NCBI GenBank assembly: GCA_937872895.1
Contig: CALMUP010000008.1
Location: 68,976-132,975 of the forward strand
Source of the DNA: an uncultured Verrucomicrobiota bacterium
GTDB lineage: Bacteria; Verrucomicrobiota; Kiritimatiellia; CAIVKH01
Length of the DNA stretch: 64,000 nucleotides
Reading direction: 5' to 3'
Within the stretch, counting starts at the first letter, position 1. Every line of letters begins with the position of its first letter. Both the position numbers and the translations under genes were made by a program. Of this stretch, positions 35,403 to 53,999 are shown piece after piece. The notes below the pieces were generated by a model. That model had not been told where the DNA came from and made no database searches. It saw nothing but the letters and a program-made list of their open reading frames with translations.

Positions 35403-35897
35403 GTGGAATCGCTGATCCAGCAGTTCCTCAGCCGCGACGCCGGCCCGGTCGTCCAGTTCATCAAGTATGCCCTGGCCGGCGGGATCGCCACCGCGGTGGA
35501 CATCGCGGTGTTCTACCTGGTGGCCTGGAAATTCATTCCCGCCCTGCGCGAGGATGATCCGGTCGTGAAGCGGCTGGGCCTGAAGGTCAAGCCGGTCACC
35601 GAAGCCCAGCGTTCCGCCCGCTTCGTGTACGTCACGCTGATCGCCTTCCTGTTCTCGAACCTGACCGCCTACCTGATCAACATCCTCTGGGTGTTCGAGC
35701 CGGGCAAGCATGCATGGTGGATTGAACTGCTGCTCTTCTACGCCGTATCCGGCATCAGCATCTTTATCGGGGCGGGCATCGGCTGGGTGATGATCAAGTG
35801 GTTCCACCTCAGCACCACCGCCTCCTACGCGAGCAAGATGATCGCATCACTGCTGATCAACTTTGTCTGCCGGAAATTCATTATTTTCAAGGGTTAA
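35403..35897 (+). CDS. GtrA-family membrane protein
   Basis: 164 aa with four TM helices, a GtrA-like N-terminus (…FIKYALAGGIATAVDIAVFYLV…) and a GTG start. Confidence 0.65.
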   Translation: MESLIQQFLSRDAGPVVQFIKYALAGGIATAVDIAVFYLVAWKFIPALREDDPVVKRLGLKVKPVTEAQRSARFVYVTLIAFLFSNLTAYLINILWVFEPGKHAWWIELLLFYAVSGISIFIGAGIGWVMIKWFHLSTTASYASKMIASLLINFVCRKFIIFKG

Positions 35898-38147: not shown

Positions 38148-39066
38148 AGCGGCACGGGCGTATGCTGTCCATACCGATATGCCCCATACCCACCCACATG
38201 CTTTTCCTCACCTGGTCACTGCTGAAGTGACCGATCGCGGCCTGCACCGAGCCCGCAACGAGGATGCGATCATCCGCCTGCCTGGTTCCGGGGTGTTCTG
38301 CGTCGCCGATGGTATTGGTGGTTCACAAGGAGGGCACGAGGCCAGCGCCATCACCGTGCAAGCACTCCTTGATATATTTTCACGCGCGGATGTTGACCAG
38401 TCGGCCAACAACTTTGAAACCCGTAAGCGCCTGGTCCGCGAGGCGATGAACCAGGCCTGTCAGTCCATTCGCCGCCACTGTCTGGTGGCGGGGTACCGCG
38501 AGTCGGGAACAACGGCGGTGACCATGTTGTTCGACCGGGAGGATGTGACACGTGCGGCGATCCTGCATGCCGGCGACAGCCGTGCCTACCGCTACCGTGA
38601 CGGGCGATTGTACCGGCTGACCCGCGATCACACGCTCGCCGTCGAGGCGGGGTGGCCCGAGCAGGACGCCTGGGTCTTCGGCATGCGTACCATCGTGACG
38701 AGGGCGGTGGGTGTTCGACCTGCGGTTGATCTGGATGAATCGCCGGTGGATGTTCTGCCGGGCGATGTTTTCCTGCTGTGTACTGACGGGCTTACCCGCA
38801 TGTTGCATGATCGTCTGATCGCGGATAGCATACAGCGCCACGGAATTCATGATCTTGATGCCACGGCGCAAGCCCTGGTTGCCCAGGCCAACGCGGCCGG
38901 CGGCAAGGACAACATCACGGTGTTGCTGGTGCGGGTGGATGAGTCCGCAAATCCGTCCATCCGTGACAAGCCGGCGGGGTGGCGCTCATGGTGCGCTCCG
39001 TTGCTTCGCCGTATCCCGTGGATCGGACGCAAACTGCATCATCCGACCGGTCCGGCCCTGGGTTGA
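38126..39066 (+). CDS. PP2C-family Ser/Thr protein phosphatase
   Basis: GLHRARNEDA…FCVADGIGGSQGGHEAS…LLCTDGL…GGKDNITVLLV is the PP2C signature. RBS aaagga lies before the ATG at 38126. Confidence 0.8.
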
Positions 39067-39097: not shown

Positions 39098-39499
39098 CTA
39101 CTCCTTGAATTTGAACGCGTGCGGGAGCAGTCCGCCCATGGTCAGGGAATGGATGTCCTCCGGATGCTTGACCGATGCGACATAAACCGGCGTGTCGGCC
39201 CGCAGGAACTCGCTCAACACCTGGCGGCAGGCACCGCACGGGAAGGCAATCGCATCGCCGTCGGCCACGATCGCCACCGCCTTGAACGAGGAGATCCCCC
39301 GGGCCACCGCGGCAAAGATCGCGTTGCGCTCGGCACAGATGGTCAGGCCGTAGGAGGCGTTCTCGACATTGCAGCCGGTGATGATCTCCCCGTTGTCGGC
39401 GAGCAAGGCCGCGCCGACATGGAAGTTCGAGTAGGGCGCGTAGGCGCGCCGCGAAACCTCTACCGCGGCGGCGACGAGTTTGTGGGCGATGTCGTTCAT
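39098..39499 (-). CDS. cdd: Cytidine deaminase
   Basis: …CAERNAIFAAV…PCGACRQVL… zinc-binding motifs. 133 aa. Confidence 0.9.
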   Translation of the reverse strand: MNDIAHKLVAAAVEVSRRAYAPYSNFHVGAALLADNGEIITGCNVENASYGLTICAERNAIFAAVARGISSFKAVAIVADGDAIAFPCGACRQVLSEFLRADTPVYVASVKHPEDIHSLTMGGLLPHAFKFKE

Positions 39500-40323
39500 G
39501 CGCGGGCCATCTCCTCCCAGAAGCGACCGATCATCGCGATCATCTTCGGCATGGTCTGCCGCGAGGTCTCGGTGACTTCCTCATGGCTGAGCGGATGGGC
39601 GCTGATCCCGGCCGCCGCATTGGTGATGCACGACAGGCCGGCCACCCGCAAACCGGCGGCATTCGCGAGCAGGGTTTCCGGAACGGTGGACATACCCACC
39701 GCATCGGCACCGAGCGTCCGGAAGGCGCGGATCTCGGCCGGTGTTTCATAAAACGGACCGGACGAGGCGAGGTAGACGCCTTCGGCGGCGGCGAGCCCAC
39801 TCGACAACGCGGCGCGCTTCAACGCGGCGCGCATGGCGAGATCGTAGGCATTCGACAGGTCGGGGAAGCGCGGTCCCCAGCAGGGATGGTGCGGACCGAT
39901 CAACGGATTTGCGCCCATGTTGTTGATGTGATCGGAAAGGACCATCAGCGAACCGGGTTTCAGGTCGGCCCGTACCCCGCCTGCCGCATTGGTCAGCAGC
40001 ACCCACGACGCGCCCAGCTGCTTCAGCAGGTAGACTGGAATCGCGACCGGGGTCCAGCCTTCGCCCTCGTAGTAATGGCGGCGTCCCTGGAACACCAGGG
40101 TCGTGATGCCGGCCGCTTCGGCGAGGATCAACTTGCCGGAATGGCCGACCACCCCGGTCTTGCCGAAGCCGGGGATGTCCTCGTAGGGGATCGTGGCGTG
40201 TACAGTGAAGTTGGTCAGGACATCGCCCCAGCCGGAGCCGAGGATCAAACCGGCGGTCGGTTTGGGCTGGTTGAGTCGCTTGCGGACAACGTCCGCGGCC
40301 TGTTCGAGGACTTGAATGTTCAT
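39496..40323 (-). CDS. punA: Purine nucleoside phosphorylase (PNP family I, PunA/XapA-type)
   Basis: …ILGSGWG…GHSGKL…LTNAAGG…MSTVPE…. 275 aa. Overlaps cdd by 4 nt. Confidence 0.9.
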   Translation of the reverse strand: MNIQVLEQAADVVRKRLNQPKPTAGLILGSGWGDVLTNFTVHATIPYEDIPGFGKTGVVGHSGKLILAEAAGITTLVFQGRRHYYEGEGWTPVAIPVYLLKQLGASWVLLTNAAGGVRADLKPGSLMVLSDHINNMGANPLIGPHHPCWGPRFPDLSNAYDLAMRAALKRAALSSGLAAAEGVYLASSGPFYETPAEIRAFRTLGADAVGMSTVPETLLANAAGLRVAGLSCITNAAAGISAHPLSHEEVTETSRQTMPKMIAMIGRFWEEMARA

Positions 40324-40334
40324 GGTCGGACCTT

Positions 40335-41639
40335 TCAGCGGAGGGTTTCCAAAACGGCGGGGGCGTGCGGTACGGGATTGGCGGAGAAGCGGAAGGCGGC
40401 CGCGATAAGTTGTTCCGCCTCGGCGAGCTTCTGCTTGTCGTTGGCGTGGATCATCAGCAGCGGCTGGCCTTTCTCCACCCGGTCGCCAACCTTGACGAGG
40501 TCGGAGATGCCGACGGCGAAATCGACCGGATCCTCGGTCCGCTTGCGGCCCGCGCCCAGCACGATGCAGGCGCGGCCGATGCCCTCGGCATTCACCTCGG
40601 CGACATAACCGGCGTGTGGCGCGTTGAACTCCTCCACGATGGAGGCGTGCGGCAGGCGCGACAGGTCATCGATCGCCGCGACATCGCCGTGTTGCAGCCG
40701 GACCATCTCGCGGAACCGCGCCAGGGCTTCGCCGTTCTTGAGCTTCTCGCGGCAGGCGCGGTCGAGTTCGACCGGATCGCGGTCCGGATAGGAGAGCATG
40801 ATCATCTCGACCGCGAGCAATACGGTCAGGTCCACCAGATCGGCCGGACCCCGGCCACGCAGTGTCTCGACCGATTCGATCACCTCAAGGGCATTGCCCG
40901 CAGTGCGGCCGAGCGGCTGGTTCATGTCGGTGATGATCGCGGAGACCTTCCTGTTCATCGCCTTGCCTACGTTGATCATCGACTGGGCGAGGGCACGGGC
41001 GTCCTCGCGTGTCTTCATGAAGGCCCCGGCACCACACTTCACGTCAAGCACGAGGGCATCGATGCCTTCAGCCATCTTCTTGCACATGATGCTGGCGGTG
41101 ATCAGCGGGATCGACGGCACCGTCGCGGTCACATCGCGCAATGCATAGAGTTTCTTGTCGGCGGGGGCCAGCCGGTCGGTCTGGCCGATGATCGAGCATC
41201 CGCACTGCTTGATGACATCGATGAAGTGCTTCTCGGCAATCTTCGCCTGGTAGCCGGGAATCGATTCGAGCTTGTCGAGGGTGCCGCCGGTGATGCCGAG
41301 GCCGCGCCCGGAGATCATCGGCACGGCGATGTCGAAGCAGGCGACCAGCGGGGCCAGCGGCAGCGACACCTTGTCGCCGATGCCGCCGGTCGAATGCTTG
41401 TCGGCCTTGGGCAACGGGATGCTCGACGTGTCCACGAGGTCGCCCGAACGCATCATCGCATCGACCAGCACCGAGACCTCGGCCGGATCCATCCCCTTGA
41501 AGTAGATGGCCATGGCCAGGGCCGACATCTGGTAGTCGGGAATGGTTCCCTTCGTGTAGCCATCGATAAACCAGCGAATCTCCTCGCTGCTCAGGGCTTT
41601 TCCGTCGCGTTTCTTCTCAATGATCCATTGGGGCAGCAT
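40335..41639 (-). CDS. deoA: Thymidine/pyrimidine-nucleoside phosphorylase
   Basis: …KRDGKALSSEEIRWFIDGY…HSTGGIGDKVSL…. 434 aa. Confidence 0.9.
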   Translation of the reverse strand: MLPQWIIEKKRDGKALSSEEIRWFIDGYTKGTIPDYQMSALAMAIYFKGMDPAEVSVLVDAMMRSGDLVDTSSIPLPKADKHSTGGIGDKVSLPLAPLVACFDIAVPMISGRGLGITGGTLDKLESIPGYQAKIAEKHFIDVIKQCGCSIIGQTDRLAPADKKLYALRDVTATVPSIPLITASIMCKKMAEGIDALVLDVKCGAGAFMKTREDARALAQSMINVGKAMNRKVSAIITDMNQPLGRTAGNALEVIESVETLRGRGPADLVDLTVLLAVEMIMLSYPDRDPVELDRACREKLKNGEALARFREMVRLQHGDVAAIDDLSRLPHASIVEEFNAPHAGYVAEVNAEGIGRACIVLGAGRKRTEDPVDFAVGISDLVKVGDRVEKGQPLLMIHANDKQKLAEAEQLIAAAFRFSANPVPHAPAVLETLR

Positions 41640-41656
41640 GGTGGGTCTCCGTCGGG

Positions 41657-42832
41657 TTAGACAAACGATACGCCGCGGGTGACCGGCTTGATGCCGAACA
41701 GCGTGGCGATAGATTGGGCGATGTCGTAGTAGCCGTTGCGCACACCGAGCGAGACACCCGGCTTGCCGCGTCGGTACAGCAGGACCGGAACGGCCTCGCG
41801 GGTATGGTCGGTACCCTTGTAGGTCGGGTCGTTGCCGTGGTCCGCAGTCAGGATGAGCACATCGTCATCGGCCAGGGTCGGAATGAATCCGGCCAGCCAG
41901 GCATCGGTCTGGCGCAGGCAGTCGGCGTAACCCTGCGGATCGCGACGATGCCCGTAGATCATGTCGAAGTCGATGAAGTTGGCGAAGATCAAGCCGTTGC
42001 CCGGTTCCTTCATGAACACCTCGACCGCCTTCTGGGAGTCGCGGTTGTTCCCGGTGTGGTTCGACTTGGTAACGCCGCGGTGGGCGACAATGTCCTCGAT
42101 CTTGCCGACGGCATACACCGGAATGCCGGCTTCGGTCAGCCGCTCCAGCACGGTTGCCTCGGCGGGCTTGAACGCGTAGTCGCGGCGGTTTTCCGTGCGC
42201 GTGAAGGCACCGGGTTTGCCGAGGAACGGGCGTGCGATGACCCGGCCGACGCGGTAGGGGTCGCACAGTTCGCGGGCGATCTCGCAGGCGCGGTAGAGTT
42301 CCTCCAGCGGGATCACGTCTTCATGGGCGGCGATCTGGAACACGCTGTCCGCGCTGGTATAGACGATCCATTTCCCTTCGACCATTTGACGGGCGCCGAA
42401 TTCATCGATGATGCCGGTCCCGCTGGCCGCCTTGTTGCCGAGGATGCCGCGCCCGGTGCGCTCCTCGAATTGGCGCACCAGTTCATCCGGGAAGGAGGGT
42501 GGACCGGGCGGGAATAGGTGGAAGCCGGGGATGAGTTCGAGCCCGACAATTTCCCAATGGCCGGTGACCGTGTCCTTGCCCTGCGATTGCTCGATCATCG
42601 TGCCGAAACTTGCCTCGGGTGCATCGACCGGTGCTACGCCGGGGATAGCGGGTGACCCGGGCAACAGGACGGGGATGTTGCCGAGGCCGAGGCGTTGCAG
42701 GACGGGGAGGTTCAAACCGCCCACCGCCTGGCCGATGTGGGGCAGGGTGGCGGCACCTTCATCGCCGTAGGCGGCGGCATCCGGGGCATGGCCCACGCCA
42801 ACGGAATCCAAAACGATCAATACCACTTTCAT
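41657..42832 (-). CDS. deoB: Phosphopentomutase
   Basis: MKVVLIVLDSVGVG…, 391 aa, alkaline-phosphatase-superfamily DeoB. Confidence 0.9.
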   Translation of the reverse strand: MKVVLIVLDSVGVGHAPDAAAYGDEGAATLPHIGQAVGGLNLPVLQRLGLGNIPVLLPGSPAIPGVAPVDAPEASFGTMIEQSQGKDTVTGHWEIVGLELIPGFHLFPPGPPSFPDELVRQFEERTGRGILGNKAASGTGIIDEFGARQMVEGKWIVYTSADSVFQIAAHEDVIPLEELYRACEIARELCDPYRVGRVIARPFLGKPGAFTRTENRRDYAFKPAEATVLERLTEAGIPVYAVGKIEDIVAHRGVTKSNHTGNNRDSQKAVEVFMKEPGNGLIFANFIDFDMIYGHRRDPQGYADCLRQTDAWLAGFIPTLADDDVLILTADHGNDPTYKGTDHTREAVPVLLYRRGKPGVSLGVRNGYYDIAQSIATLFGIKPVTRGVSFV

Positions 42833-42922: not shown

Positions 42923-43192
42923 CTAGGTCCGGTTGAGCTGGTCCACGATGCCGACGATTACCGAACGGACCGGTGCGGTGGGGTCACCCAGCACCTGGCG
43001 GGCTCCGGTTCCCTCATCGAGAACAAGGACCGGTTCGCCGATGCCGGCCCCGACGGAATCCACCGCGATCAGGTAATCCCCGCCCGGCTTTCCCTCGGGA
43101 TTGTGCTTCTCCACCATCAGGAGTTTTTTCCCGTCGTAAAACGGGTGGTTGATCGTTGAGTAGATGTTGCCGATGACGACGCCGGTGATCAT
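42923..43192 (-). CDS. BMC vertex protein (BMC-P; EutN/CcmL/PduN family)
   Basis: MITGVVIGNIYSTINHP…GKKLLMV……GDYLIAVDSVGAGIGEPVLV…. 89 aa. Confidence 0.85.
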   Translation of the reverse strand: MITGVVIGNIYSTINHPFYDGKKLLMVEKHNPEGKPGGDYLIAVDSVGAGIGEPVLVLDEGTGARQVLGDPTAPVRSVIVGIVDQLNRT

Positions 43193-43473
43193 GGTGTGCC
43201 TGCCTCGTTGCGGGTGATGCCGTCCACGATGCCGATGATCGCGTGATCGACCGGGACGAACGTCGTGTCCAAGGCCATGGCCGCCTCGCGGCCTCCTTCG
43301 TAATAAACGGTCTCGCCTGCGCCGGCCATCCGTGTGGCATCGGCCGCGACCAGCGCCTTGCCCTTCGGCTGGCCGTTCTTGTCGAGCGGCTGGACCAGTA
43401 GCATCGGCACGCCGCCGAGGCCTTCGTAGATGTCGCAGGGGACAACGGTTCCGATGACTTTGCCGAGCATCAT
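43189..43473 (-). CDS. BMC vertex protein (BMC-P), second paralogue
   Basis: MMLGKVIGTVVPCDIYEGLGGVPMLLVQPL…ALVAADATRMAGAGETVYY…. Strong RBS aggagagagg before the internal ATG; the 154-aa track ORF was rejected. Confidence 0.8.
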   Translation of the reverse strand: MMLGKVIGTVVPCDIYEGLGGVPMLLVQPLDKNGQPKGKALVAADATRMAGAGETVYYEGGREAAMALDTTFVPVDHAIIGIVDGITRNEAGTP

Positions 43474-43474
43474 A

Positions 43475-44086
43475 TCAAGTCCTCTCTCCTTCGAGTTCGA
43501 GGGCGGTGGCTTCGTGGAAACGGGTCGAGCCGTTGATCTGGCGACCGAGGGCTTCGTGGGGTGCGGTGAGGATCCGGTGGGTGAAGACCACCCCGGCGTG
43601 TTCGAGGAAGGCTGCGGCGAGGTCCACTGCGGCCTCGATATCATGCAGGTCACCCTCGTAGATGCTCAAGCCCTTGCCCGCGAGCCCGTCATCGGCCAGG
43701 CGCAACTCGATCAGCGATACCGGGGTGCCTTTGAGTGCGGCCTCGGCGGCCCGGACATTCGCGGAAACCGAGGAGGTCTCGATGATCGCCCAGGCTCCGT
43801 CACGGGTCGCCGCACGGCGACCGAACATCGCCGCAAATACGTCGGGATGCACATCGGGGAGAAACACCTTGTCGATCAGCGCCTGCCCGGCCCAGAACTG
43901 GCCTTCGGCATAGGCCTCCTCGACGGCGGCGGTGGAGCCGCCGATAACGGTCAGGTAACGCCCGCGGGTGATCGTTCCGTTCTTCAGGAAGGCGATCGGC
44001 GCTTTCTTGAGCATGGCATCGGTGGCCTGGATTCCCGAGGGAATGTCCAGGAACTCCAGGATGGCCACCGCGGGGAAGGGCTTCAT
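43475..44086 (-). CDS. Tandem-domain BMC shell protein (BMC-T)
   Basis: Two BMC (PF00936-like) domains: AVAILEFLDIPSGIQATDAMLKKAPIAF… and AWAIIETSSVSANVRAAEAALKGTPVSLIELRL…. The start codon overlaps the AldDH stop (TGATG). Confidence 0.7.
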   Translation of the reverse strand: MKPFPAVAILEFLDIPSGIQATDAMLKKAPIAFLKNGTITRGRYLTVIGGSTAAVEEAYAEGQFWAGQALIDKVFLPDVHPDVFAAMFGRRAATRDGAWAIIETSSVSANVRAAEAALKGTPVSLIELRLADDGLAGKGLSIYEGDLHDIEAAVDLAAAFLEHAGVVFTHRILTAPHEALGRQINGSTRFHEATALELEGERT

Positions 44087-45537
44087 CAGGTGATCCGGAA
44101 GTGGTCGACCAGCACGCAGCGGCGCCACCGCGAGAAGCTGCGCGGTCCGGTGAGGCCTTCGCCGGTCGGGCTGGCGATGGTGAACGAGCAGTAGCCTTCG
44201 CCACCGAGGCCGAGTCCCGCCTGGGAGCGGCCATTCTTGACGAAGATGCTGCAGTTGCATTCCTTTGCCATGCGGTGCAGTTTGTCGATGTTGCGCGAGT
44301 GCATGATCGCGGTGTGGCGGTTGCCGCCCTCGGTCTTGAGGGCGAGGTCGATCGCGTAGTCGGCATTCGGTACGCGGCAGACCGGCAGGATCGGCATCAT
44401 CTGTTCGGTCCAGAGCAGCGGATGGTTCTCGTCGACTTCGACGATGCCGAGGCGGATCGAGCTCGGGACATTGATGCCGATCTTCGCGAGGATCACGTCG
44501 GCGTTCTTGCCGATCAAGTCGCGGTTGATGTGGGCCTCCTTGCGGGGTCCGTGCATTTCGGTGAAGATGACTTTCTCCAGCGCGGCGAGCTTGTCGGGAC
44601 CGATCAGCACCGCATTGTTCTGGGTCATGGCCTGGACCAGCCGGTCGGCCACGCTCGACACCACCAGCACCTGTTTCTCGTCGGCGCAGATAATGTTGTT
44701 GTCGGTCGAGGCGCCGAGCACGATGTCGCGCCCGGCCTTGTCGATGTCGGCGGTCTCGTCGACGACCACCGGCGGGTTGCCAGGGCCGGCGCAGATCGCG
44801 CGCTTGCCGCTGGTCATCGCCGCCTTCACCACACCGCCACCGCCGGTCACCACGACCAGGCGGATATCCGGATGCTTCATCGTGGCGTTGGCGCTCTCCA
44901 CGGTCGGGCTGGCCACGCAGGTGATGGTGTTCGCCGGGCCGCCGGAATCGACGATGACCTTGTTGATCAGCGCGACGGTCTGCATGGAGCAGTTCTTCGC
45001 GGTCGGATGGACGTTGAAGACCACCGTGTTGCCGGCGGCGATCATGCCGATGGTGTTGCAGATGATCGTCGAGGTCGGGTTGGTGCAGGGGGTGATCGCG
45101 CCGATCACGCCAAACGGGGCGGGCTCGAGCAGGCAGAGGCCGTGGTCGCCGGTGATGGCCTGCGGTTCGAGGTGCTCCATGCCCGGGGTCTTTTCCGTCA
45201 CCAGGATGTTCTTGGTGATCTTGTCCTCAAAGCGGCCGAGGCCGGTCTCGGTATGGGCCGCCTTGGCCAGCGGAGCGGCGTGCTCGAGCATCGTCTTGCG
45301 GATGTTGGCGATGATCGTGGCGCGGGTCTTGAGGGGCAGGGCGACGAATACCGGTTGCGCGGCCTTGGCGGCCTTCACCGCTTCATCCACGGTGGCGTAG
45401 ATGCCGAGGGCCTGTTCCAGGGGCGGTGCCCCCGAGGCGCTGGTCGCGGCGGGGCTGCCCGGTTCCCGGTTCAAGTCCGCAACGATGCGCTGGGCGATCG
45501 CATCGATTTCCTGGTCGGTCAATCTGGCCATAATCAC
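44086..45537 (-). CDS. CoA-acylating aldehyde dehydrogenase (EutE/PduP family) with N-terminal encapsulation-peptide-like helix
   Basis: 483 aa with an ALDH fold and a catalytic Cys region. The N-terminus ARLTDQEIDAIAQRIVADL (amphipathic) is followed by a Pro/Ser/Ala linker. Confidence 0.85.
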   Translation of the reverse strand: MIMARLTDQEIDAIAQRIVADLNREPGSPAATSASGAPPLEQALGIYATVDEAVKAAKAAQPVFVALPLKTRATIIANIRKTMLEHAAPLAKAAHTETGLGRFEDKITKNILVTEKTPGMEHLEPQAITGDHGLCLLEPAPFGVIGAITPCTNPTSTIICNTIGMIAAGNTVVFNVHPTAKNCSMQTVALINKVIVDSGGPANTITCVASPTVESANATMKHPDIRLVVVTGGGGVVKAAMTSGKRAICAGPGNPPVVVDETADIDKAGRDIVLGASTDNNIICADEKQVLVVSSVADRLVQAMTQNNAVLIGPDKLAALEKVIFTEMHGPRKEAHINRDLIGKNADVILAKIGINVPSSIRLGIVEVDENHPLLWTEQMMPILPVCRVPNADYAIDLALKTEGGNRHTAIMHSRNIDKLHRMAKECNCSIFVKNGRSQAGLGLGGEGYCSFTIASPTGEGLTGPRSFSRWRRCVLVDHFRIT

Positions 45538-45638: not shown

Positions 45639-45926
45639 CTACTTTTTGTACTTGGTCGCGTTGCCGACGTTCCACGTGTCCACGATGCCCATGACCACGG
45701 CGTCCACCGGACGCTTGTCGGTCATCTGGGTCTGGCGCGCGGAACTGCCGGACGCGATCAACACGATTTCCTCGGGACCCGCGCCGACGGCGTCGGCCGC
45801 GACGAGGATCGAGCCGGTTTCCCGGCCTTCCTCGTCAACCGGCCGCACCATCAGGAATTTCAGCCCGTCGAGGCTGGACTCCTTGCGCGTCGACACGACA
45901 GTCCCGACCACTTTGGCGAGTTGCAT
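45639..45926 (-). CDS. BMC vertex protein (BMC-P), third paralogue
   Basis: MQLAKVVGTVVSTRKESSLDGLKFLMVRPVD…ILVAADAVGAGPEEIVLIASGSSAR…. 95 aa. Confidence 0.85.
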   Translation of the reverse strand: MQLAKVVGTVVSTRKESSLDGLKFLMVRPVDEEGRETGSILVAADAVGAGPEEIVLIASGSSARQTQMTDKRPVDAVVMGIVDTWNVGNATKYKK

Positions 45927-45963: not shown

Positions 45964-46263
45964 TTACTTCTTGGCCTTGGCGTCGGGGGCGCGGCCGAGC
46001 GGCATCACCGCATCCACGTTGGCGTGGGGGCGGGCAATGACGTGGATGGCCACGACTTCACCGATGCGTCCGGCAGCGACCTGGGCGGCGTCGCAGGCGG
46101 CCTTGACCGCGGCCACATCACCGCGAACAACCACGGTGGTGAAACCGCCGCCGGTCTTCTCGTAGGACACCAGTTCAACCTTGGCCGCTTTCACTGCGGC
46201 ATCGGCGGCTTCCACGACCGCCGGGAACGAACGCGTCTCGATCATGCCTAATGCTTCCGTCAT
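45964..46263 (-). CDS. BMC hexamer shell protein (BMC-H; PduA/EutM-like)
   Basis: [57 protein letters not shown]… is the canonical BMC-H sequence. Confidence 0.9.
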
Positions 46264-46373: not shown

Positions 46374-47000
46374 CTACCGTCCCTTGACCACGCGGCCGGT
46401 GACCGCTTCGATGGCCTTCTCGGCGGCCCGGTACCCGACATCGATATCACGCTCCTCCCCGCCGAGGTAGAGGCGCCCGACCGCGCCGACCGCGCGCACT
46501 TCGAGAATATTGATGTTCGCGGCCTTTTCGGCCTCGTTCGCGGCGATGGCGGCGTACCCGGCCGGCGCGCACTCCATCACGTACAGGGAGTGGCCGGGCA
46601 GGATCATGTCGCCGTGGCGGGTGCGGTTGATCAACTGGGTGTGGTAGTCGGAAATGTTGCGGATCACCTCGCTGGTGTAGATCTCCGGCTTGATGCGGTC
46701 CTCCTCCTTGAGGCCAAGGTGCTCGAGGATGGCCCGGCCGGCCTCGCGCACTTCCGACTGTTCGTGGGAGTGGAGTTCCAGCATGCCGAACTGGCGTTCG
46801 ACGATCAGCATGCCGGGCGTGACGTTGGTCGCCTTCAGGGCGACGTCGGTCATGCGCATGATGTCCATGCCGGGGTTGATTTCCACGAAGAGGGCGGCCT
46901 GGCCCGGGGTGGGGAGGAAGCCCTGCGCGACCGTTCCGAGGAACGACGCGAATTGCGGCTGCAAGCTGTCGAGAAACACGTAACAACGCAGTTCGGCCAT
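46374..47000 (-). CDS. Permuted tandem BMC shell protein (EutL/PduB-like BMC-T)
   Basis: About 208 aa. Segments …ALFVEINPGMDIMRMTDVALKATNV… and …GHSLYVMECAPAGYAAIAANEAEKAANINILEV… parallel the two permuted domains of EutL. Strong RBS ggaagaaggag before the ATG at 47000; the upstream extension in the track ORF was rejected. Confidence 0.6.
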   Translation of the reverse strand: MAELRCYVFLDSLQPQFASFLGTVAQGFLPTPGQAALFVEINPGMDIMRMTDVALKATNVTPGMLIVERQFGMLELHSHEQSEVREAGRAILEHLGLKEEDRIKPEIYTSEVIRNISDYHTQLINRTRHGDMILPGHSLYVMECAPAGYAAIAANEAEKAANINILEVRAVGAVGRLYLGGEERDIDVGYRAAEKAIEAVTGRVVKGR

Positions 47001-47023: not shown

Positions 47024-48298
47024 TTATTTGCCGGCCAATGCCTTGGCCTCTTCCATTATCTTCACACTGCTGCTGCAACCGACGCGGGTCGCGCCGGCGT
47101 TGACCATCTTGATGACATCGGCGTAGGTGCGCACCCCGCCCGAGGCCTTGACCCCGAGTTTCTTCGGCGCGGTCACCCGGGCCATCAGCGCGATGTCCTC
47201 GGCGGTCGCGCCGCCGGTGGACATGCCGGTCGAGGTCTTCACGTAGTGGGCGCCGCCCTTCATGCTCAATTCACAGGCGCGGACCTTCTCCTCGTCGGTG
47301 AGCAGGCTGTTCTCGAAGATCACCTTGCACAGGGCGCGCGCATCGTTGCAGTCCTCGACCACGCCGCGGATGTCCTGCAGGACCAGCTTGTCGTCCTTGC
47401 TCTTGAGTGCGCCGATGTTGATAACCATGTCGATCTCCTGGGCGCCGTCGCGCAACGCACGCCGGGTCTCCAGGGCCTTGATCTGCGGGGTCACCGCACC
47501 CAGCGGGAATCCGACCACCGCGCAGACCTTGACCGACGAACCGCGCAGCAGCGTGCGGGCCAGTTTCACCCACATCGGGTTCACGCAGACCGAGAAGAAG
47601 TTGAACTGGAGCGCTTCCTTGCAAAGTTTTTCGACATCCGCCTGCGAGGCGTCGGCCTTCAGGATGGTATGATCGATCAGCTTGCAGAGTTTCTCCGGCG
47701 GAATCGGGGCGCCGCCGGCAGGACGTCCGGTCGGGCCGCCGGCGATCATCGACTTCACACGGTCGGCGATGCGTTGGACGTCTTCGGGGCTCAGGTTGGA
47801 TGGCATGGATGCGCTCATATGCGTTCTCTCGATTTCCTTGATAAGGTTCACCCGGGCGATGTGCCGCTCCGCGGTGTGTTCGGTGGACAGGAAAACAGCG
47901 GCGATCTTCTTGGCGTCCTCCAGACCGGTCTGGCCGGAACCGAGGGTGAGGAGGTTCGCCCCGTTGTGCTCGCGGGCATTGCGGGCGAGGGCTTCGTTGT
48001 AGCAGGCGGCGGCGAGTACGCCGGGATGCTTGTTCGCGGTCATCGCGGATCCGATGCCCGCACCGTCGATCATGATGCCGAAATCGGCCTTGCCGGACGA
48101 CACCGCGGCGGCCACCAGGGAGGCGAATCGTGGATAGTCCACGGGGTCCTTGCCGTTTGTGCCAACGTCCTGGACGGAGTGTCCCAAGCCGGTCAGTAAG
48201 GGGATCAACCCCTGCTTGGTCTCGAAGCCTCCGTGGTCAGCGCCAATCGCTATCCGTACACTTCGGGTCATCAGTTGCAGCATGCTTGGCCATGTCAC
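47024..48298 (-). CDS. Fusion protein: RpiB/LacAB-family sugar-phosphate isomerase (N) + deoxyribose-phosphate aldolase DeoC/DERA (C), with internal encapsulation-peptide-like helix
   Basis: N-terminal domain IAIGADHGG…[17 protein letters not shown] (RpiB fold). The linker …[41 protein letters not shown]… contains an amphipathic helix. C-terminal domain [12 protein letters not shown]…FFSVCVNP…[17 protein letters not shown]…VKASGGVRT (DERA, with both catalytic Lys present). Confidence 0.8.
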
Positions 48299-50141: not shown

Positions 50142-50261
50142 GAGAGGGCCCTTTCTATGAACAGGTTACCAATCGATCAACAATAGCCGGGCAGACTACC
50201 CGGTCACGGCAAACCCGTCAATGCGAAGTCCTGAGGGAGGAGAGCCGAAAAAAGGGGAAAA

Positions 50262-50337
<76 letters not shown>

Positions 50338-50568
50338 ACAGGTGATCGAGGGTGCGTTTATAGCCAGCGATGGCGTTTCGTGCAACAAAAAGTTGAACTC
50401 CTGCGATCCGGACCGGAAATAGGTTGCGCAGTATTCCATCCCGGGGATGACCGGTCGTTGCCGCCAGCCGGCCTGTGGGGCGGCCAATCCGTATTGAGCC
50501 TCCCGGGTCCTGGAATGCCTGAAGCCGCTTCCGCTTTCCTTTCCACGGGCATTCGTTAAGGTGGGGTC

Positions 50569-52020
50569 ATGCGCGAGGTCGTTGTTCACGGTTGGCCCTA
50601 CTTCGTGGCGGGCCTCGGTTTGTTGATGTCGCTGCTGACCTCGGGTCATGCGATCATCTACAAGCGCGACTCCCGTGCCGCCGTGGGGTGGGTCGGTCTC
50701 GTCTGGCTGGCCCCGTTTGTCGGGCCGCTTTTGTATGTCCTGCTCGGCATCAACCGGATCCACAGGAAAGCCGCGGGGATACGCGGTGACGAATGCGAGC
50801 ACATGGCTTCCGTGGCGTCGTTCACCTGTTCGCCGGTTGACCTGGCCAACCACCTGCCGGATGGTCATGGCCACCTCGCCAGCCTGGCCCAGGTCGGAGA
50901 GCAACTGACCCGGCTCCCCTTGCTCACGGGCAACCGTGTCGATGTCCTGTGCGATGGCGATCAAGCCTACCCGGCCATGATCGAGGCCATCGAGGCGGCG
51001 GAACGGTCGGTCTCGTTGACCTCGTACATCTTCGACAATGATCGCGCTGGCCGTCGGTTCGTCGAGGCGCTGGCCGCCGCAGTCAGGCGCGGGGTCCAGG
51101 TGCGTGTGCTGATCGATGCGATCGGCGCCCGCTATTCAATCCCTCCCGTCACACAGAATCTCCGGGCGCAGGGCGTCCGGGTGGCCCGATTCATGCCTAG
51201 CAATGTGCCGTGGACTACACCGTATGTGAACCTCCGCAGCCATCGCAAGATCCTGGTCGCGGATGGCCGGGTCGGCTTTACCGGCGGGATGAATATTCGT
51301 GAAGGCAGCATGTTGTCGCTGAATTCAGAACATCCCGCTCGCGATGTGCATTTCCGCGTGACGGGACCGGTGGTGCAGGAGTTGCAGGCCACCTTTGTCG
51401 AGGATTGGTATTTCACCACCGGCGAACGGCTGTCCGGTGACGGTTGGTTTGCCCCGGCCGAGGACGTCGGATCGGTCATCGCACGTGGTGTGCCCGACGG
51501 ACCCGACAAGCACTACGACACGATGCGCATGGCCTTTCATGCCGCGTTGTCCGTGGCGCAACGATCGGTACGGATCATCACGCCCTACTTCCTGCCGGAC
51601 GCCGCCCTGATCAGCACGTTGAACACCTGTGCGATGCGCGGGGTACCGGTGGATATCATCCTGCCGGAAACCAACAACCTGAAAATGGTGGCCTGGGCAT
51701 CCATGGCCCAGATGTGGCAGGTTCTTGAGTGGGGTTGTAGGGTTTGGTTGACCCCGCCGCCCTTTGATCATACCAAGCTTTTTGTCGTCGACGGTGCCTG
51801 GTCCATGATTGGCTCGTCCAACTGGGATCCTCGCAGCCTGCGGCTTAATTTCGAATTCGGGGTCGAGTGTTACGGCGTGGAACTGGCGAAACGGCTTGAT
51901 GCACTGGCCGAACTGCGCATGCGGGAAGCGCGCCGCCTCACGTTGGAGGAGGTGAACGGTCGTTCCCTCCCGGTTCAATTGCGGGATGGCGGAGCCCGCC
52001 TGTTTGCCCCGTACCTGTGA
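50569..52020 (+). CDS. cls: Cardiolipin synthase (PLD superfamily)
   Basis: Two N-terminal TM helices and two HKD motifs (…LRSHRKILVADG…; …DHTKLFVVDGAWSMIGSSNWD…). Confidence 0.9.
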   Translation: MREVVVHGWPYFVAGLGLLMSLLTSGHAIIYKRDSRAAVGWVGLVWLAPFVGPLLYVLLGINRIHRKAAGIRGDECEHMASVASFTCSPVDLANHLPDGHGHLASLAQVGEQLTRLPLLTGNRVDVLCDGDQAYPAMIEAIEAAERSVSLTSYIFDNDRAGRRFVEALAAAVRRGVQVRVLIDAIGARYSIPPVTQNLRAQGVRVARFMPSNVPWTTPYVNLRSHRKILVADGRVGFTGGMNIREGSMLSLNSEHPARDVHFRVTGPVVQELQATFVEDWYFTTGERLSGDGWFAPAEDVGSVIARGVPDGPDKHYDTMRMAFHAALSVAQRSVRIITPYFLPDAALISTLNTCAMRGVPVDIILPETNNLKMVAWASMAQMWQVLEWGCRVWLTPPPFDHTKLFVVDGAWSMIGSSNWDPRSLRLNFEFGVECYGVELAKRLDALAELRMREARRLTLEEVNGRSLPVQLRDGGARLFAPYL

Positions 52021-52103
52021 ACGGTCCATGTCCTTGAATGCCACCTTGACAGCGCTAGCCACCTTCCGGATGGTAGCCGCACACGCAACACGCTGAGCTT
52101 CCC

Positions 52104-53999
52104 ATGGACACCACACCCACCTTCAACGCGACCCATCCGCGAACGCCAAACGCAAAATCGCCCTTTTGCCCTCCCAAGACCTCCCGGCTGGCCACCCTGC
52201 TGCATGGCGGCCCGGTGGATCTCGAGGAAGTGCAACGCATCCGTGATGTCGTGATGTTTGATCCCCCGGAGCGAACCAAGCGTCTGGTTCGGTTCTTCTG
52301 CCTGCTGCTGATGGCCGCGGGAATCGCGACCTTTGGCCTGTTGCTGGATTCGGCGGCCACCGTGATCGGCGCGATGATCGTGGCGCCGCTCATGCTTCCC
52401 ATCACCGGACTCGCGTTCGGGATCAGCATGGGCGATGCCCGGTCGGTGCTCAGTTCCGCCCTTGTCTCGCTGGCCGGCATGGTGGTTGTGGTGTGCCTCG
52501 GTTGCCTGCTGACCCTGCCGGTGACCGGGCTTTACGCACCACTGGAAATCGGACAGATCATGGCCCGCACTGCACCACGCCTGCTGGACCTGATTGCCGC
52601 GCTCGTCATCGGCATCGCCGGTGCATTCGCCATGGCCCGCCGTGATGTGTCCGACACCCTGCCCGGGGTCGCGATTGCCGTATCGCTGGTTCCGCCGCTG
52701 GCCAACGTGGGCATTCTCCTGGCCTTTGGCGAAACCCGGCTCGCGCTCGGCAGTCTGCTCCTGTTCCTCGCCAACTACGTCGCGATCCTCACCTCGGGCA
52801 TTTTTGTCTTCCGGATCATGGGCTTCGGCACCGTGCTTGCCGAGGAGGCCACAGGGCAAACCCATCGCAAAGGCGTCCTGGTTTCGGCGCTGGGAATCCT
52901 GCTGGTTGCCGTCCCTCTGGCGTTGACCAGCTATGACATCGCCCGCAAGGCTTCGCTGAAGCGTTCGGTCATGGCGGAGGTCGAATCGTGGCTCACGGGA
53001 GGGGACTACCGCCTGGCCGGGGTCGAGACCGAAACCGTTGACGACCACGTGAGGGTCCTGGTCAAGGGCTCGGGTTACCTGCCTCCGATCGAGGATCTCC
53101 AGGACCGGTTGTCCGGGCCGTTGGCCGGTCGTTCGGTCACGGTTGAAGCCATCGAGGTGAATTCGATCCATTTCCCGGCGGCACCCGTGACCGGGGACAA
53201 GAAATCTGCGCACGAACAAGGCATCTGGGAGCGCACGTACCAGACCCTGCAAACCGACGATTGGTTGGATCTCGCCTACGTTCGCCCTGAGGCGGAAGAA
53301 TACCTGGCGATCCTGAAGTCGGTTGAGGAAACGGAGCCCGGCGCCGACTGGCTCGAACAGCGTCTGGATTACTACCGGATGGTGGAGCAGGCGGTCCTGG
53401 AACTTGCGCCACCCGGGCTCTACGACCCGGCTGCTCCCAAGCCGCTGACGCAAGCCGCCATGGCATTCGATTCCGTACTCGGGCTGGCGATTGCCGCGCG
53501 GATCGCCGATCCTGAAGCGTGGAAGTCCCGCGTGGCCGGGCGTCCGGTACCCGCCCGCGCCGAAGCCCTGGCCCCGTTGCTTCGCCGTATCTTCATCGAG
53601 GAAGGGGTGGCTCCCGAACTGATCTGGGTGGCCGAGGTTGAGTCGACCTTCAACCCCGCAGCGCGGAGTCCGGTGGGTGCCCTGGGATTGTTCCAATTGA
53701 TGCCGGTTACCGCGAAATCGCTGGGATTGCGGGTATCTCCGACGGATGAACGGCTCGATCCCGAGCGGAACACGCGCGCGGCTGCACGGTATTTGCGGCA
53801 GTTGCATGGCCGGTTCGGTTCGTGGGAACTGGCGTTGGCCGCCTACAACGGCGGACAGGGACGGGTGGCCCGTCTTCTGCGCCAACACCCGGGCGGTGGA
53901 TTTGCCGAAATTTCACCGTACCTGCCTGCGGAAACCCGCATGTACGTGCCCAAGGTCATGGCCATCATTTCTCTTCGAGAAGGGCGATTGCCGGGATAA
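52104..53999 (+). CDS. Fusion: DUF389 (TIGR00341) polytopic membrane domain + C-terminal soluble lytic transglycosylase (SLT) domain
   Basis: The N-terminal roughly 330 aa have multiple TM helices typical of DUF389. The C-terminus has …ELIWVAEVESTFNPAARSPVGALGLFQLMPVTA…AYNGG… (SLT catalytic Glu-Ser motif). Confidence 0.65.
   Translation: MDTTPTFNATHPRTPNAKSPFCPPKTSRLATLLHGGPVDLEEVQRIRDVVMFDPPERTKRLVRFFCLLLMAAGIATFGLLLDSAATVIGAMIVAPLMLPITGLAFGISMGDARSVLSSALVSLAGMVVVVCLGCLLTLPVTGLYAPLEIGQIMARTAPRLLDLIAALVIGIAGAFAMARRDVSDTLPGVAIAVSLVPPLANVGILLAFGETRLALGSLLLFLANYVAILTSGIFVFRIMGFGTVLAEEATGQTHRKGVLVSALGILLVAVPLALTSYDIARKASLKRSVMAEVESWLTGGDYRLAGVETETVDDHVRVLVKGSGYLPPIEDLQDRLSGPLAGRSVTVEAIEVNSIHFPAAPVTGDKKSAHEQGIWERTYQTLQTDDWLDLAYVRPEAEEYLAILKSVEETEPGADWLEQRLDYYRMVEQAVLELAPPGLYDPAAPKPLTQAAMAFDSVLGLAIAARIADPEAWKSRVAGRPVPARAEALAPLLRRIFIEEGVAPELIWVAEVESTFNPAARSPVGALGLFQLMPVTAKSLGLRVSPTDERLDPERNTRAAARYLRQLHGRFGSWELALAAYNGGQGRVARLLRQHPGGGFAEISPYLPAETRMYVPKVMAIISLREGRLPG

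What the first reader, a model, noticed from the sequence alone, without database searches (positions are those of the whole stretch)
47024..48298. RpiB-DERA fusion enzyme with an internal encapsulation-peptide-like helix and a non-canonical RpiB active-site position
A single 424-aa ORF joins an RpiB/LacAB-type isomerase domain to a deoxyribose-phosphate aldolase domain. Both Schiff-base and general-acid lysines are present (VKTSTG…VKASGGVRT).

The roughly 45-aa inter-domain linker contains an amphipathic helix, [17 protein letters not shown], flanked by Ser/Pro/Gly-rich segments. It closely resembles the N-terminal helix of the neighbouring AldDH (TDQEIDAIAQRIVADL). This is the pattern expected for BMC encapsulation peptides, but here placed internally between two catalytic domains.

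In the RpiB-like domain the residue aligned, from memory, with the catalytic Cys of E. coli RpiB (…LICGTGIG…) is Asp (…MIDGAGIG…). This suggests the 'RpiB' module may act on a different sugar phosphate, or be non-isomerising.
Basis: seen in the sequence. Interest (0 to 1): 0.7.

Follow-up and report, generated by a model that had tools for sequence, protein, structure and literature searches.

The report
Known microcompartment RpiB-like–DERA fusion enzyme

Summary
ORF 47024..48298 (minus strand, 424 aa) has three parts. The first is an RpiB/LacAB domain (residues 15-162). The second is a roughly 40-50 aa linker with a conserved amphipathic helix (169-186). The third is a complete DERA (204-424) with Asp290, Lys354 and Lys384 in place. 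Asp78 occupies the position of E. coli RpiB Cys66. Ala80 replaces Thr68, and Ser84 sits where M. tuberculosis RpiB has its alternative base, Glu75.

The gene opens a sugar-phosphate-utilising (SPU) microcompartment operon. Downstream lie a CcmP-like BMC-T, a BMC-H, three BMC-P, a PduT-like BMC-T and an acylating aldehyde dehydrogenase with an N-terminal encapsulation peptide. These are followed by deoB, deoA, a purine nucleoside phosphorylase gene and cdd.

All three claims are already in the literature. Axen 2014 noted the fusion. Dwyer, Sutter and Kerfeld 2024 described the SPU3 RPI-DERA chimera, the linker helix as a putative encapsulation peptide, Cys-to-Asp in all SPU RPIs, and negligible ribose-5-phosphate isomerase activity. 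A 2025 preprint showed that inter-domain encapsulation peptides recruit cargo to shells.

My additions are modest. All 11 RpiB pocket positions are at least 98% conserved in 62 fusions, which argues against a decayed pseudoenzyme. The linker helix and the AldDH peptide share one motif. Verdict: already known, low interest.

The parts
47024..48298 (-). RpiB-like/DERA fusion gene (424 aa from GTG 48298; the more likely start is ATG 48271, MTRS...)
   Evidence: ORF list. Pfam domains. NCBIfam. Homologue N-termini. DNA around the start codons.
47813..48256 (-). RpiB/LacAB-like domain, residues 15-162. The pocket residues are D21, H22, Y55, D78, A80, S84, H111, N112, R145, H146 and R149.
   Evidence: PDB phmmer gives E 3.5e-32 to C. 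thermocellum RpiB 3he8, ungapped. AF2 pLDDT is about 86-96 across the domain.
48065..48067 (-). Asp78 codon, at the position of the catalytic Cys66 of E. coli RpiB
   Evidence: Asp is found in 62 of 62 fusions. It is also found in 122 of the 150 best 50%-identity cluster representatives.
47690..47812 (-). Inter-domain region, residues 163-203 ([41 protein letters not shown])
   Evidence: It has low AF2 confidence outside the helix. Outside the helix it is poorly conserved and variable in length.
47741..47794 (-). Conserved amphipathic helix [18 protein letters not shown] (residues 169-186), a putative internal encapsulation peptide that corresponds to the N-terminal extension of SPU DERAs
   Evidence: Hydrophobic moment 0.67. 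AF2 helix at 171-186. Column conservation, e.g. D173 in 58/62, I177 in 56/62 and R180 in 51/62. AldDH-EP HMM hits. Literature.
47027..47689 (-). DERA (DeoC) domain, residues 204-424. Catalytic residues are D290, K354 (Schiff base) and K384.
   Evidence: PDB phmmer gives E 1.6e-75 to DERA 8qps. TIGR00126 scores 275.6 bits. Alignment to E. coli DERA is.
46374..47000 (-). CcmP-like tandem-domain shell protein (BMC-T, double-stacking type); ATG at 47000 preceded by AAGGAG
   Evidence: NCBIfam beta-carboxysome CcmP scores 312.7 bits, E 1.2e-93, below its equivalog cut-off of 340.
45964..46263 (-). BMC-H hexamer shell protein
   Evidence: Pfam BMC, E 7.7e-28.
45639..45926 (-). BMC-P pentamer shell protein 1
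   Evidence: Pfam EutN_CcmL, E 1.3e-31.
44086..45537 (-). CoA-acylating aldehyde dehydrogenase (EutE/PduP-like) with an N-terminal encapsulation peptide
   Evidence: NCBIfam PRK15398 scores 646.6 bits.
45472..45525 (-). AldDH N-terminal encapsulation peptide RLTDQEIDAIAQRIVADL
   Evidence: It is conserved in AldDH of related loci. The joint motif HMM scores 17.9 bits here and 19.1 bits on the fusion helix, and at most 2 bits on any other ORF of the window. That HMM was trained on these two sequences among others.
43475..44086 (-). PduT-like tandem BMC-T shell protein; its start overlaps the AldDH stop codon (TGATG)
   Evidence: Pfam BMC with two stretches. NCBIfam eut_PduT E 1.7e-21, below cut-off.
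43189..43473 (-). BMC-P pentamer shell protein 2
   Evidence: Pfam EutN_CcmL, E 2.7e-19.
42923..43192 (-). BMC-P pentamer shell protein 3
   Evidence: Pfam EutN_CcmL, E 7.7e-24.
41657..42832 (-). Phosphopentomutase (deoB), with no terminal extension and therefore presumably cytosolic
   Evidence: NCBIfam PRK05362 scores 507.2 bits over residues 2-391.
40335..41639 (-). Thymidine/pyrimidine-nucleoside phosphorylase (deoA)
   Evidence: NCBIfam PRK05820 scores 570.4 bits.
39496..40323 (-). Purine-nucleoside phosphorylase
   Evidence: NCBIfam PRK08202 scores 329.2 bits.
39098..39499 (-). Cytidine deaminase (cdd)
   Evidence: NCBIfam PRK05578 scores 150.4 bits.

Best explanation
The ORF is the signature cargo enzyme of an SPU3-type (sugar-phosphate-utilising) bacterial microcompartment, probably in a Kiritimatiellia/PVC-group bacterium.

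Proposed pathway. Cytosolic cytidine deaminase, the nucleoside phosphorylases and phosphopentomutase convert deoxynucleosides to 2-deoxyribose 5-phosphate. That sugar phosphate enters the shell. [quoted passage not shown] The co-encapsulated acylating AldDH oxidises the volatile, toxic acetaldehyde to acetyl-CoA.

The helix. The helix at 169-186 is the DERA family's own N-terminal extension, here trapped between two domains. It carries the same motif as the AldDH N-terminal peptide. It most likely acts as an encapsulation peptide, either co-aggregating the cargo or docking it to the shell.

The RpiB-like domain. It belongs to a BMC-specific Asp/Ala/Ser subfamily that does not isomerise ribose 5-phosphate. 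It most likely serves as the oligomerising partner of DERA that builds the enzyme core. Its intact pocket suggests that it still binds a sugar phosphate.

Shown here: domain identities, residue identities, conservation, helix amphipathicity, locus content. Shown elsewhere on homologues: DERA activity, lack of RPI activity, the RPI-DERA complex, and dependence of shell recruitment on inter-domain EPs. Inferred: encapsulation of this particular protein, the role of the RpiB-like domain, and the metabolite flow.
For: - Domains and catalytic residues.
- Operon: tightly packed genes for BMC-Tdp, BMC-H, three BMC-P, BMC-T and AldDH, then deoB, deoA, a PNP gene and cdd.
- Recurrence: the fusion recurs in many phyla. 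581 tblastn-confirmed relatives were found among GTDB species genomes, and the 80 best cover both domains. 62 of 81 sequences (the 80 loci plus the window) are single-ORF fusions. 59 of 80 loci have shell genes within the sequence fetched.
- Helix: conserved and amphipathic. An independent AldDH-EP HMM hits it. In this window only the fusion and AldDH carry the motif.
- Asp-type RpiB: it forms a coherent subfamily. 122 of 150 representatives have Asp, and 74 of those have an N-terminal extension of at least 35 aa, as described for SPU RPIs.
- Literature: PMC11585597 for the SPU3 chimera, Cys-to-Asp, no R5P isomerase activity, the 1:1 RPI-DERA complex and active DERA. PMC4207490 for the fusion noted in 2014. 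PMC12747264 for inter-domain EPs required for shell recruitment.
Against: - Nothing has been measured on this protein. Encapsulation, DERA activity and the oligomeric state are all inferred from homologues that are 45-65% identical or more distant.
- All 11 RpiB pocket positions are at least 98% conserved. That fits poorly with a purely structural, catalytically dead module.
- AF2 confidence for the helix is only moderate, and pTM is 0.55, so the relation of the helix to either domain is unresolved.
- The locus encodes no phosphotransacylase, alcohol dehydrogenase or PduS homologue within the genes examined. CoA and NAD+ recycling inside the shell is therefore unexplained.
Confidence: 0.8

Rival explanations
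1. The RpiB-like domain is not a scaffold but a working enzyme or ligand-binding module for a different sugar phosphate. Asp78 could act as the catalytic base. Alternatively, only the His111 ring-opening function may be retained, for example to open or deliver the furanose form of 2-deoxyribose 5-phosphate to DERA, or to isomerise another phosphosugar.
For: All 11 pocket positions (equivalents of E. coli D9, H10, Y43, C66, T68, I72, H99, N100, R133, H134, R137) are at least 98% conserved in 62 fusions whose RpiB domains are only 49-70% identical to the window. Only 25% of domain columns reach that level (hypergeometric P = 7e-8). The replacement triad Asp/Ala/Ser is itself fixed, in 112 of 150 cluster representatives. 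A carboxylate base works in M. tuberculosis RpiB (cited in PMC11585597). The RpiB family includes isomerases for other phosphosugars (NCBIfam LacA/LacB and erythrulose-4-phosphate isomerase models).
Against: A standalone SPU RPI with the same Asp showed negligible ribose-5-phosphate isomerase activity, and complex formation did not improve DERA kinetics (PMC11585597). 2-Deoxyribose 5-phosphate has no C2 hydroxyl and cannot undergo aldose-ketose isomerisation (established chemistry). RpiB pocket residues lie at the subunit interface (established from RpiB structures), so some of the conservation could reflect oligomerisation. RPI is absent from SPU5 loci, so it is not essential to SPU chemistry.
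Confidence: 0.3
2. [quoted passage not shown]
For: Dwyer et al. found that the apparent linker superposes on a structural element of the SPU6 DERA N-terminal extension. The helix carries conserved charged residues (D173, R176, R180), which could form intramolecular contacts. It is internal, whereas classical encapsulation peptides are terminal.
Against: Non-BMC DERAs lack the extension (PDB DERAs align only from residue 204 onwards). The same motif sits at the N-terminus of the AldDH, which has no DERA fold. It is flanked by low-confidence, poorly conserved Pro/Gly/Ser/Ala stretches. Inter-domain EPs in Flav+DERA fusions were required for shell recruitment in a related SPU-type system (PMC12747264). 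Removing the extension made SPU6 DERA soluble, which is typical EP behaviour.
Confidence: 0.15
3. The N-terminal domain is an ordinary ribose-5-phosphate isomerase B that links pentose-phosphate metabolism to the compartment.
For: It passes the Pfam PF02502 threshold and the NCBIfam subfamily thresholds (PRK05571 146.4 against 135; TIGR00689 138.5 against 88.3). It is 40-46% identical to characterised RpiBs.
Against: The catalytic Cys66, Thr68 and the alternative Glu75 position are all substituted. It scores below the rpiB equivalog cut-off (130.6 against 138.65). A homologue lacks activity. No transketolase or other enzyme in the locus would connect ribulose 5-phosphate to DERA.
Confidence: 0.04
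4. The single ORF is an assembly or frame artefact that joins two separate genes.
For: In some genomes the two domains are separate adjacent ORFs (19 of the 80 loci). NCBI records of near-identical sequences list only 241-259-aa DERA products.
Against: 62 independent single-ORF fusions from many phyla show continuous conservation through the junction. At least 120 protein clusters of 370-487 aa (most 403-433) carry both Pfam domains. There is no stop or frame change in the window ORF.
Confidence: 0.01

Closest known systems
SPU3 RPI-DERA chimera (Dwyer, Sutter & Kerfeld 2024, Commun Biol, PMC11585597; representative from Verrucomicrobia bacterium ADurb.Bin018)
   Same: The domain order is the same (N-terminal RPI-like, C-terminal DERA). 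There is no N-terminal EP on the RPI part. An inter-domain helix derived from the DERA extension is proposed as an EP. Asp replaces the catalytic Cys. The gene sits in a BMC locus with AldDH, a CcmP-like BMC-T and three BMC-P.
   Different: Nothing essential differs. In this window deoB, deoA, a PNP gene and cdd follow the shell genes directly, which I saw in only a few of 80 related loci. I could not compare sequences with the published representative because its sequence is not held by the tools.
Standalone SPU6 RPI and DERA of Chloroflexi bacterium GWB2_54_36 (the same paper; characterised biochemically)
   Same: The RPI has Asp at the Cys66 position with His99 retained. The DERA has an N-terminal amphipathic extension and conserved D/K/K. 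The two proteins form a 1:1 complex, which the fusion makes covalent.
   Different: They are separate polypeptides. The RPI has its own N-terminal EP plus a linker of about 75 residues. The AldDH EP is C-terminal in SPU6. The DERA extension is longer, about 70 aa with two predicted strands.
E. coli RpiB (PDB 1NN4/2VVR) and C. thermocellum RpiB (3HE8)
   Same: Same fold family, with 40-46% identity and a near-ungapped alignment. The equivalents of Asp9, His10, Tyr43, His99, Asn100, Arg133, His134 and Arg137 are all present.
   Different: Cys66 is Asp, Thr68 is Ala and Ile72 is Ser. The domain is fused to DERA and lies in a BMC locus.
[quoted passage not shown]
   Same: It is an RpiB/LacAB-family protein with Asp at the catalytic-base position (as stated in PMC11585597).
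   Different: LacA works as a heteromer with LacB, which supplies the Cys. No LacB-like partner is encoded here. The window domain scores far below the LacA equivalog cut-offs (89.1 against 164).
Flav+DERA and CS+PTAC fusions of Hodarchaeales SPU-type archaeal microcompartments (preprint PMC12747264)
   Same: The EP is located as a linker between two domains of a DERA-containing fusion. It is an SPU-type pathway with AldDH.
   Different: The N-terminal partner is a flavoprotein domain rather than an RpiB-like domain. The host is archaeal. EP function was tested experimentally there and not here.
N-terminal encapsulation peptides of PduP/EutE-type aldehyde dehydrogenases
   Same: A short amphipathic helix is followed by a poorly conserved linker. 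The AldDH of this very locus has one with the same motif as the fusion helix.
   Different: The position is terminal rather than internal.

Membership tests
RpiB/LacA/LacB sugar-phosphate isomerase family (PF02502, TIGR00689) | Sequence match above the curated family thresholds | tested here: met
   PF02502 scores 150.6 bits against 24.7. TIGR00689 scores 138.5 against 88.3, and PRK05571 scores 146.4 against 135.
Ribose-5-phosphate isomerase B proper (TIGR01120 equivalog; E. coli RpiB type) | Score above the equivalog cut-off | tested here: not met
   130.6 bits against a cut-off of 138.65.
Ribose-5-phosphate isomerase B proper | Catalytic base: Cys66 (E. coli type) or Glu75 (M. tuberculosis type), plus Thr68/Ser71 | tested here: not met
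   Asp78, Ser84 and Ala80 occupy these positions. The same residues are found in 62/62, 62/62 and 61/62 fusions respectively.
Ribose-5-phosphate isomerase B proper | Ring-opening His99 and the phosphate/sugar-binding residues Asp9, His10, Tyr43, Asn100, Arg133, His134, Arg137 | tested here: met
   D21, H22, Y55, H111, N112, R145, H146 and R149 are present and invariant.
Ribose-5-phosphate isomerase B proper | Ribose-5-phosphate to ribulose-5-phosphate isomerase activity | not testable with these tools
   Negligible activity was reported for a standalone SPU6 homologue with the same Asp (PMC11585597).
Deoxyribose-phosphate aldolase (DeoC, TIGR00126 equivalog; class I aldolase) | Score above the equivalog cut-off | tested here: met
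   275.6 bits against 117.3. E 1.6e-75 to solved DERA 8qps.
Deoxyribose-phosphate aldolase | Schiff-base Lys167, proton-relay Lys201 and Asp102 (E. coli numbering) | tested here: met
   K354, K384 and D290, invariant in 49 homologues.
Deoxyribose-phosphate aldolase | Cleavage of 2-deoxyribose 5-phosphate | not testable with these tools
   Activity was measured for the SPU6 DERA with its N-terminal extension removed.
BMC encapsulation peptide | Amphipathic alpha-helix of about 15-20 residues | tested here: met
   AF2 helix at 171-186. Hydrophobic moment 0.67, above the protein's 95th percentile. Hydrophobic positions 174, 177, 178, 181, 184 and 185 are conserved.
BMC encapsulation peptide | [quoted passage not shown] | tested here: met
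   pLDDT is below 50 at 163-167 and 186-195. The flanks are variable in length and rich in Pro/Gly/Ala/Ser.
BMC encapsulation peptide | Located at the N- or C-terminus of the cargo protein | tested here: not met
   It is internal, between residues 162 and 204. It is terminal only with respect to the DERA domain. Internal EPs have since been reported.
BMC encapsulation peptide | Absent from non-BMC homologues and encoded in a shell-gene locus | tested here: met
   Solved DERAs align only from residue 204. Shell genes lie immediately downstream.
BMC encapsulation peptide | Necessary and sufficient for targeting to shells | not testable with these tools
   Shown for inter-domain EPs of Flav+DERA in Hodarchaeales, not for this protein.
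SPU (sugar-phosphate-utilising) BMC locus, subtype SPU3 | DERA plus acylating AldDH next to BMC-H, BMC-T and a triplet of BMC-P | tested here: met
SPU BMC locus, subtype SPU3 | RPI-DERA chimera, CcmP- or CsoS1D-like BMC-Tdp, N-terminal EP on AldDH, no PTAC | tested here: met
   The CcmP-like protein scores 312.7 bits. No PF06130 was found among the locus genes scanned. The formal subtype call with the authors' HMM set (BMC Caller) was not run.

The most novel reading that the evidence does not exclude
The Asp/Ala/Ser-type RpiB-like domain is not a relic scaffold. It would be a functional, BMC-specific sugar-phosphate module whose activity has been missed because only ribose 5-phosphate was assayed. 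One candidate is a His111-dependent furanose ring-opening or substrate-presenting domain that feeds acyclic 2-deoxyribose 5-phosphate to the fused DERA. Another is an Asp-based isomerase for a different phosphosugar. The complete invariance of its pocket across phyla is what one would expect of a working site.
Probability: 0.25. Interest if true: 0.6.

Novelty: already known. Interest (0 to 1): 0.22.

Why it matters
SPU compartments are among the most widespread bacterial microcompartments. They are thought to let bacteria live on DNA-derived deoxyribose while containing the acetaldehyde produced.

The fusion is useful as natural evidence that DERA and the RpiB-like protein work as a unit. It also shows that encapsulation peptides can sit between domains. 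Both points are already published.

The open question is what the RpiB-like module does. The strict conservation of its pocket, quantified here, gives a concrete reason to assay substrates other than ribose 5-phosphate. This window's operon (cdd, PNP, deoA, deoB, then the BMC genes) is a clean genetic argument that deoxynucleosides are the physiological feedstock.

Tried and rejected
- Assembly or frame artefact. I rejected this because 62 single-ORF fusions from many phyla are conserved through the junction.
- An alternative catalytic base elsewhere in the RpiB domain. The only conserved acidic residue near the site, E110, is shared with Cys-type RpiBs (REHN in C. thermocellum and M. tuberculosis). 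C99 is not invariant. I found no substitute Cys or Glu.
- A riboswitch or other RNA element upstream of the operon. The Rfam gathering-threshold scan of the window found only two tRNAs.
- Further cargo proteins carrying the EP motif in the window. None scored above 2 bits. That HMM included the two positives, so this is only a negative screen.
- Supplementary tables of Dwyer et al., for SPU3 composition and EP annotation. They are not held as text.
- Using BMC-unlinked fusions as a natural test of the EP hypothesis. The 10 fully flanked loci without shell genes turned out to carry separate RPI and DERA genes, and their DERAs still have the N-terminal extension. They do not discriminate, because the shell genes may lie elsewhere in those genomes.
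- Not done. I did not run fold searches on the AF2 model, because the sequence matches to solved RpiB and DERA structures (E 1e-32 and 1e-75) already settle the folds. The tools do not return residue-level structural alignments or model coordinates.
Full report
**1. What is there**

The minus strand carries a 424-aa ORF at 47024..48298. Pfam finds an RpiB/LacAB domain at residues 16-153 (E 3.3e-44) and a DeoC aldolase domain at 206-401. NCBIfam's deoC equivalog scores 275.6 bits against a cut-off of 117.3. The C-terminal 220 residues match solved DERAs at E 1.6e-75.

The reading frame is probably slightly over-extended. Most homologues start at MTRS, which is the ATG at 48271, and the 98%-identical P0001 is 419 aa.

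**2. The active sites**

I aligned the C-terminal domain to E. coli DERA, whose sequence I verified against PDB 1JCL. D102, K167 and K201 correspond to D290, K354 and K384. D16, K137, G204/G205 and S238 are also conserved. All are invariant in 49 homologues. By sequence, the aldolase is competent.

The N-terminal domain aligns without gaps to C. thermocellum RpiB. A four-way alignment with E. coli and M. tuberculosis RpiB used sequences verified. It places Asp78 at E. coli Cys66, Ala80 at Thr68, and Ser84 at the position of the M. tuberculosis base Glu75.

The rest of the pocket is intact. It comprises the equivalents of Asp9, His10, Tyr43, His99, Asn100, Arg133, His134 and Arg137. The domain passes the family-level models but falls just below the rpiB equivalog cut-off (130.6 against 138.65 bits).

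**3. The linker**

AlphaFold2, run with 49 homologues, gave mean pLDDT 85.5 and pTM 0.55. It models both domains confidently. Between them lies a helix at 171-186 with only moderate confidence, flanked by segments with pLDDT below 50.

The segment 171-185 has a hydrophobic moment of 0.67. The 95th percentile for windows of this protein is 0.53.

Across 62 single-ORF fusions from many phyla the helix shows the motif L-S-x-x-D-h-x-R-I-A-x-R-h-x-x-h-h, where h is a hydrophobic residue. The flanks vary in length and composition.

**4. Resemblance to the AldDH peptide**

The neighbouring aldehyde dehydrogenase starts ...MARLTDQEIDAIAQRIVADL, followed by a Pro/Ser/Ala/Gly-rich stretch. This is a classical N-terminal encapsulation peptide, and the same peptide is conserved in the AldDHs of related loci.

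I built an HMM from AldDH peptides of 48 loci only. Its 31 best hits in the fusion proteins all fell on the linker helix, which is about 4% of the protein's length. Each hit is individually weak; the window's own is 2.0 bits, E 1.0. The resemblance is therefore real at family level, though not significant for the single pair.

In this window a joint motif model scores only these two proteins (19.1 and 17.9 bits). The next ORF scores 2 bits. That model was trained on both positives.

**5. Context**

The fusion gene opens a tightly packed minus-strand operon. The genes that follow, in order, are:
- a CcmP-like BMC-T (46374..47000)
- a BMC-H
- a BMC-P
- an acylating AldDH
- a PduT-like BMC-T whose start overlaps the AldDH stop
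- two more BMC-P
- phosphopentomutase
- thymidine phosphorylase
- purine-nucleoside phosphorylase
- cytidine deaminase

The deo-type enzymes match their family profiles end to end, with no extensions, so they are presumably cytosolic. The gene upstream is a PpiD-like chaperone and appears unrelated. The nearest protein relatives come from Kiritimatiellia MAGs.

**6. Distribution**

At least 120 protein clusters carry both domains. The best 80 span Acidobacteriota, Verrucomicrobiota, Kiritimatiellia, Lentisphaerae, Planctomycetota, Marinimicrobia, Calditrichota, Fibrobacterota and others. Shell genes lie within the fetched flanks in 59 of the 80 loci.

Among the 150 best 50%-identity cluster representatives of the RpiB-like domain, 122 have Asp at the base position. 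Of these, 112 have the full Asp/Ala/Ser triad. 74 carry an N-terminal extension of at least 35 aa, which is the architecture published for standalone SPU RPIs. Cys-type RpiBs appear only further down the list.

**7. What is already known**

- Axen et al. [quoted passage not shown]
- Sutter et al. 2021 expanded SPU to seven subtypes.
- Dwyer, Sutter and Kerfeld 2024 reported the RPI-DERA chimera in 20 SPU3 loci. [quoted passage not shown]
- The same paper noted that the chimera lacks the N-terminal EP of standalone RPIs. It also found Cys66 replaced by Asp in all SPU RPIs while His99 is kept.
- Its biochemistry showed negligible ribose-5-phosphate isomerase activity for the SPU6 RPI, an active DERA, and a 1:1 RPI-DERA complex. 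The authors proposed a packaging role for the RPI.
[quoted passage not shown] Deleting them abolished recruitment to shells.

Every element of the finding is therefore in print.

**8. What this analysis adds**

First, all 11 pocket positions of the RpiB-like domain are at least 98% conserved in 62 fusions whose RpiB domains are only 49-70% identical to the window. Only 25% of domain columns are that conserved (P = 7e-8). This looks more like a working ligand site than a decayed pseudoenzyme, and it keeps open a catalytic or substrate-binding role that the published ribose-5-phosphate assay would not detect.

Second, the fusion helix and the AldDH peptide share one in-register motif. That fits a common binding partner.

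Third, this locus links the compartment directly to a full set of deoxynucleoside-salvage genes. That arrangement was seen in only a few of the 80 related loci.

**9. Mechanism proposed**

Deoxynucleosides are deaminated and phosphorolysed in the cytosol, and phosphopentomutase makes 2-deoxyribose 5-phosphate. This enters the shell. [quoted passage not shown]

The internal helix and the AldDH peptide bring both enzymes into the core. The RpiB-like domain contributes oligomerisation and possibly substrate binding.

The residues, the domains, the conservation and the gene content are shown here. The enzyme activities and EP function rest on published homologues. Encapsulation of this protein and the role of the RpiB-like domain are inference. 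How CoA and NAD+ are recycled is unexplained, because I found no phosphotransacylase, alcohol dehydrogenase or PduS homologue in the locus.

**10. Verdict**

The feature is already known, so interest is low. The residual interest lies in the unresolved function of the Asp-type RpiB-like module.

Noticed in passing
L026-L063 (e.g. L028, L034, L040, L044, L047, L058), inter-domain region of the fusion: In fusions from other phyla the inter-domain region is about twice as long as in the window. After the amphipathic helix comes a Cys-rich stretch with four or more cysteines, e.g. CTDACGFCKSCAELNPELVRSF, CSNTACAFCKVCAETNPELVRQF and CTCCGGHCGGLCAEKS. A second conserved helix (xxVRxFLxxGAxRIG) follows. 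The spacing looks like a metal or Fe-S binding site. The window's clade (L001-L024) lacks it. I did not see it mentioned in the main text of the 2024 paper.
   Followed up: partly
L056, L057, L064, L065, L068, L070, L073, L074, L076, L077 (Vicinamibacteria, Pyrinomonadaceae, Saltatorellus ferox): Ten of 35 loci with at least 6 kb on both sides show no shell or AldDH gene within about 10 kb. In at least nine of them the RPI-like and DERA parts are separate ORFs (L070 is unclear), and those DERAs still carry an EP-like N-terminal extension (NGNYEQLIDQITDLVLAKL...). Either the shell genes are elsewhere in those genomes or the extension has a role outside compartments.
   Followed up: partly
window 47024..48298; NCBI proteins HMO03194.1, HMP34644.1 and HMP89756.1: In the 90%-identity cluster of the nearest relative, NCBI's annotated products are only 241-259 aa 'deoxyribose-phosphate aldolase' from Kiritimatiellia MAGs. 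The same cluster holds 419-aa forms from other sources. Public annotation seems to truncate or split the fusion, which echoes the start-site problem described by Dwyer et al.
   Followed up: no
window 39098..42832 against L001-L080: deoB, deoA, a purine nucleoside phosphorylase gene and cdd directly follow the shell genes here. Homologues of these four genes were found near the fusion in only 2-4 of the 80 related loci each (all four together only in L005; subsets in L007, L009, L040, L044 and L073).
   Followed up: partly
P0029, P0037, P0040, P0047, P0057, P0063, P0066, P0075, P0090 (alignment A1): One subclade of fusion homologues ends in a short conserved C-terminal tail ...(K/S)GY that the window protein lacks. 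Its function is unknown.
   Followed up: no
window 33175..35286 (-), 51975..53888 (-), 50218..50964 (-): Three sizeable ORFs (703, 637 and 248 aa) gave no Pfam match at E <= 0.001. The 248-aa ORF overlaps a tRNA at 50265..50337 and may be spurious.
   Followed up: no
window 35847..38147 (-) and 37963..39066 (+): A RecD2-type helicase and a PP2C-family phosphatase lie just beyond the cdd end of the operon. I saw no evident link to the compartment.
   Followed up: no
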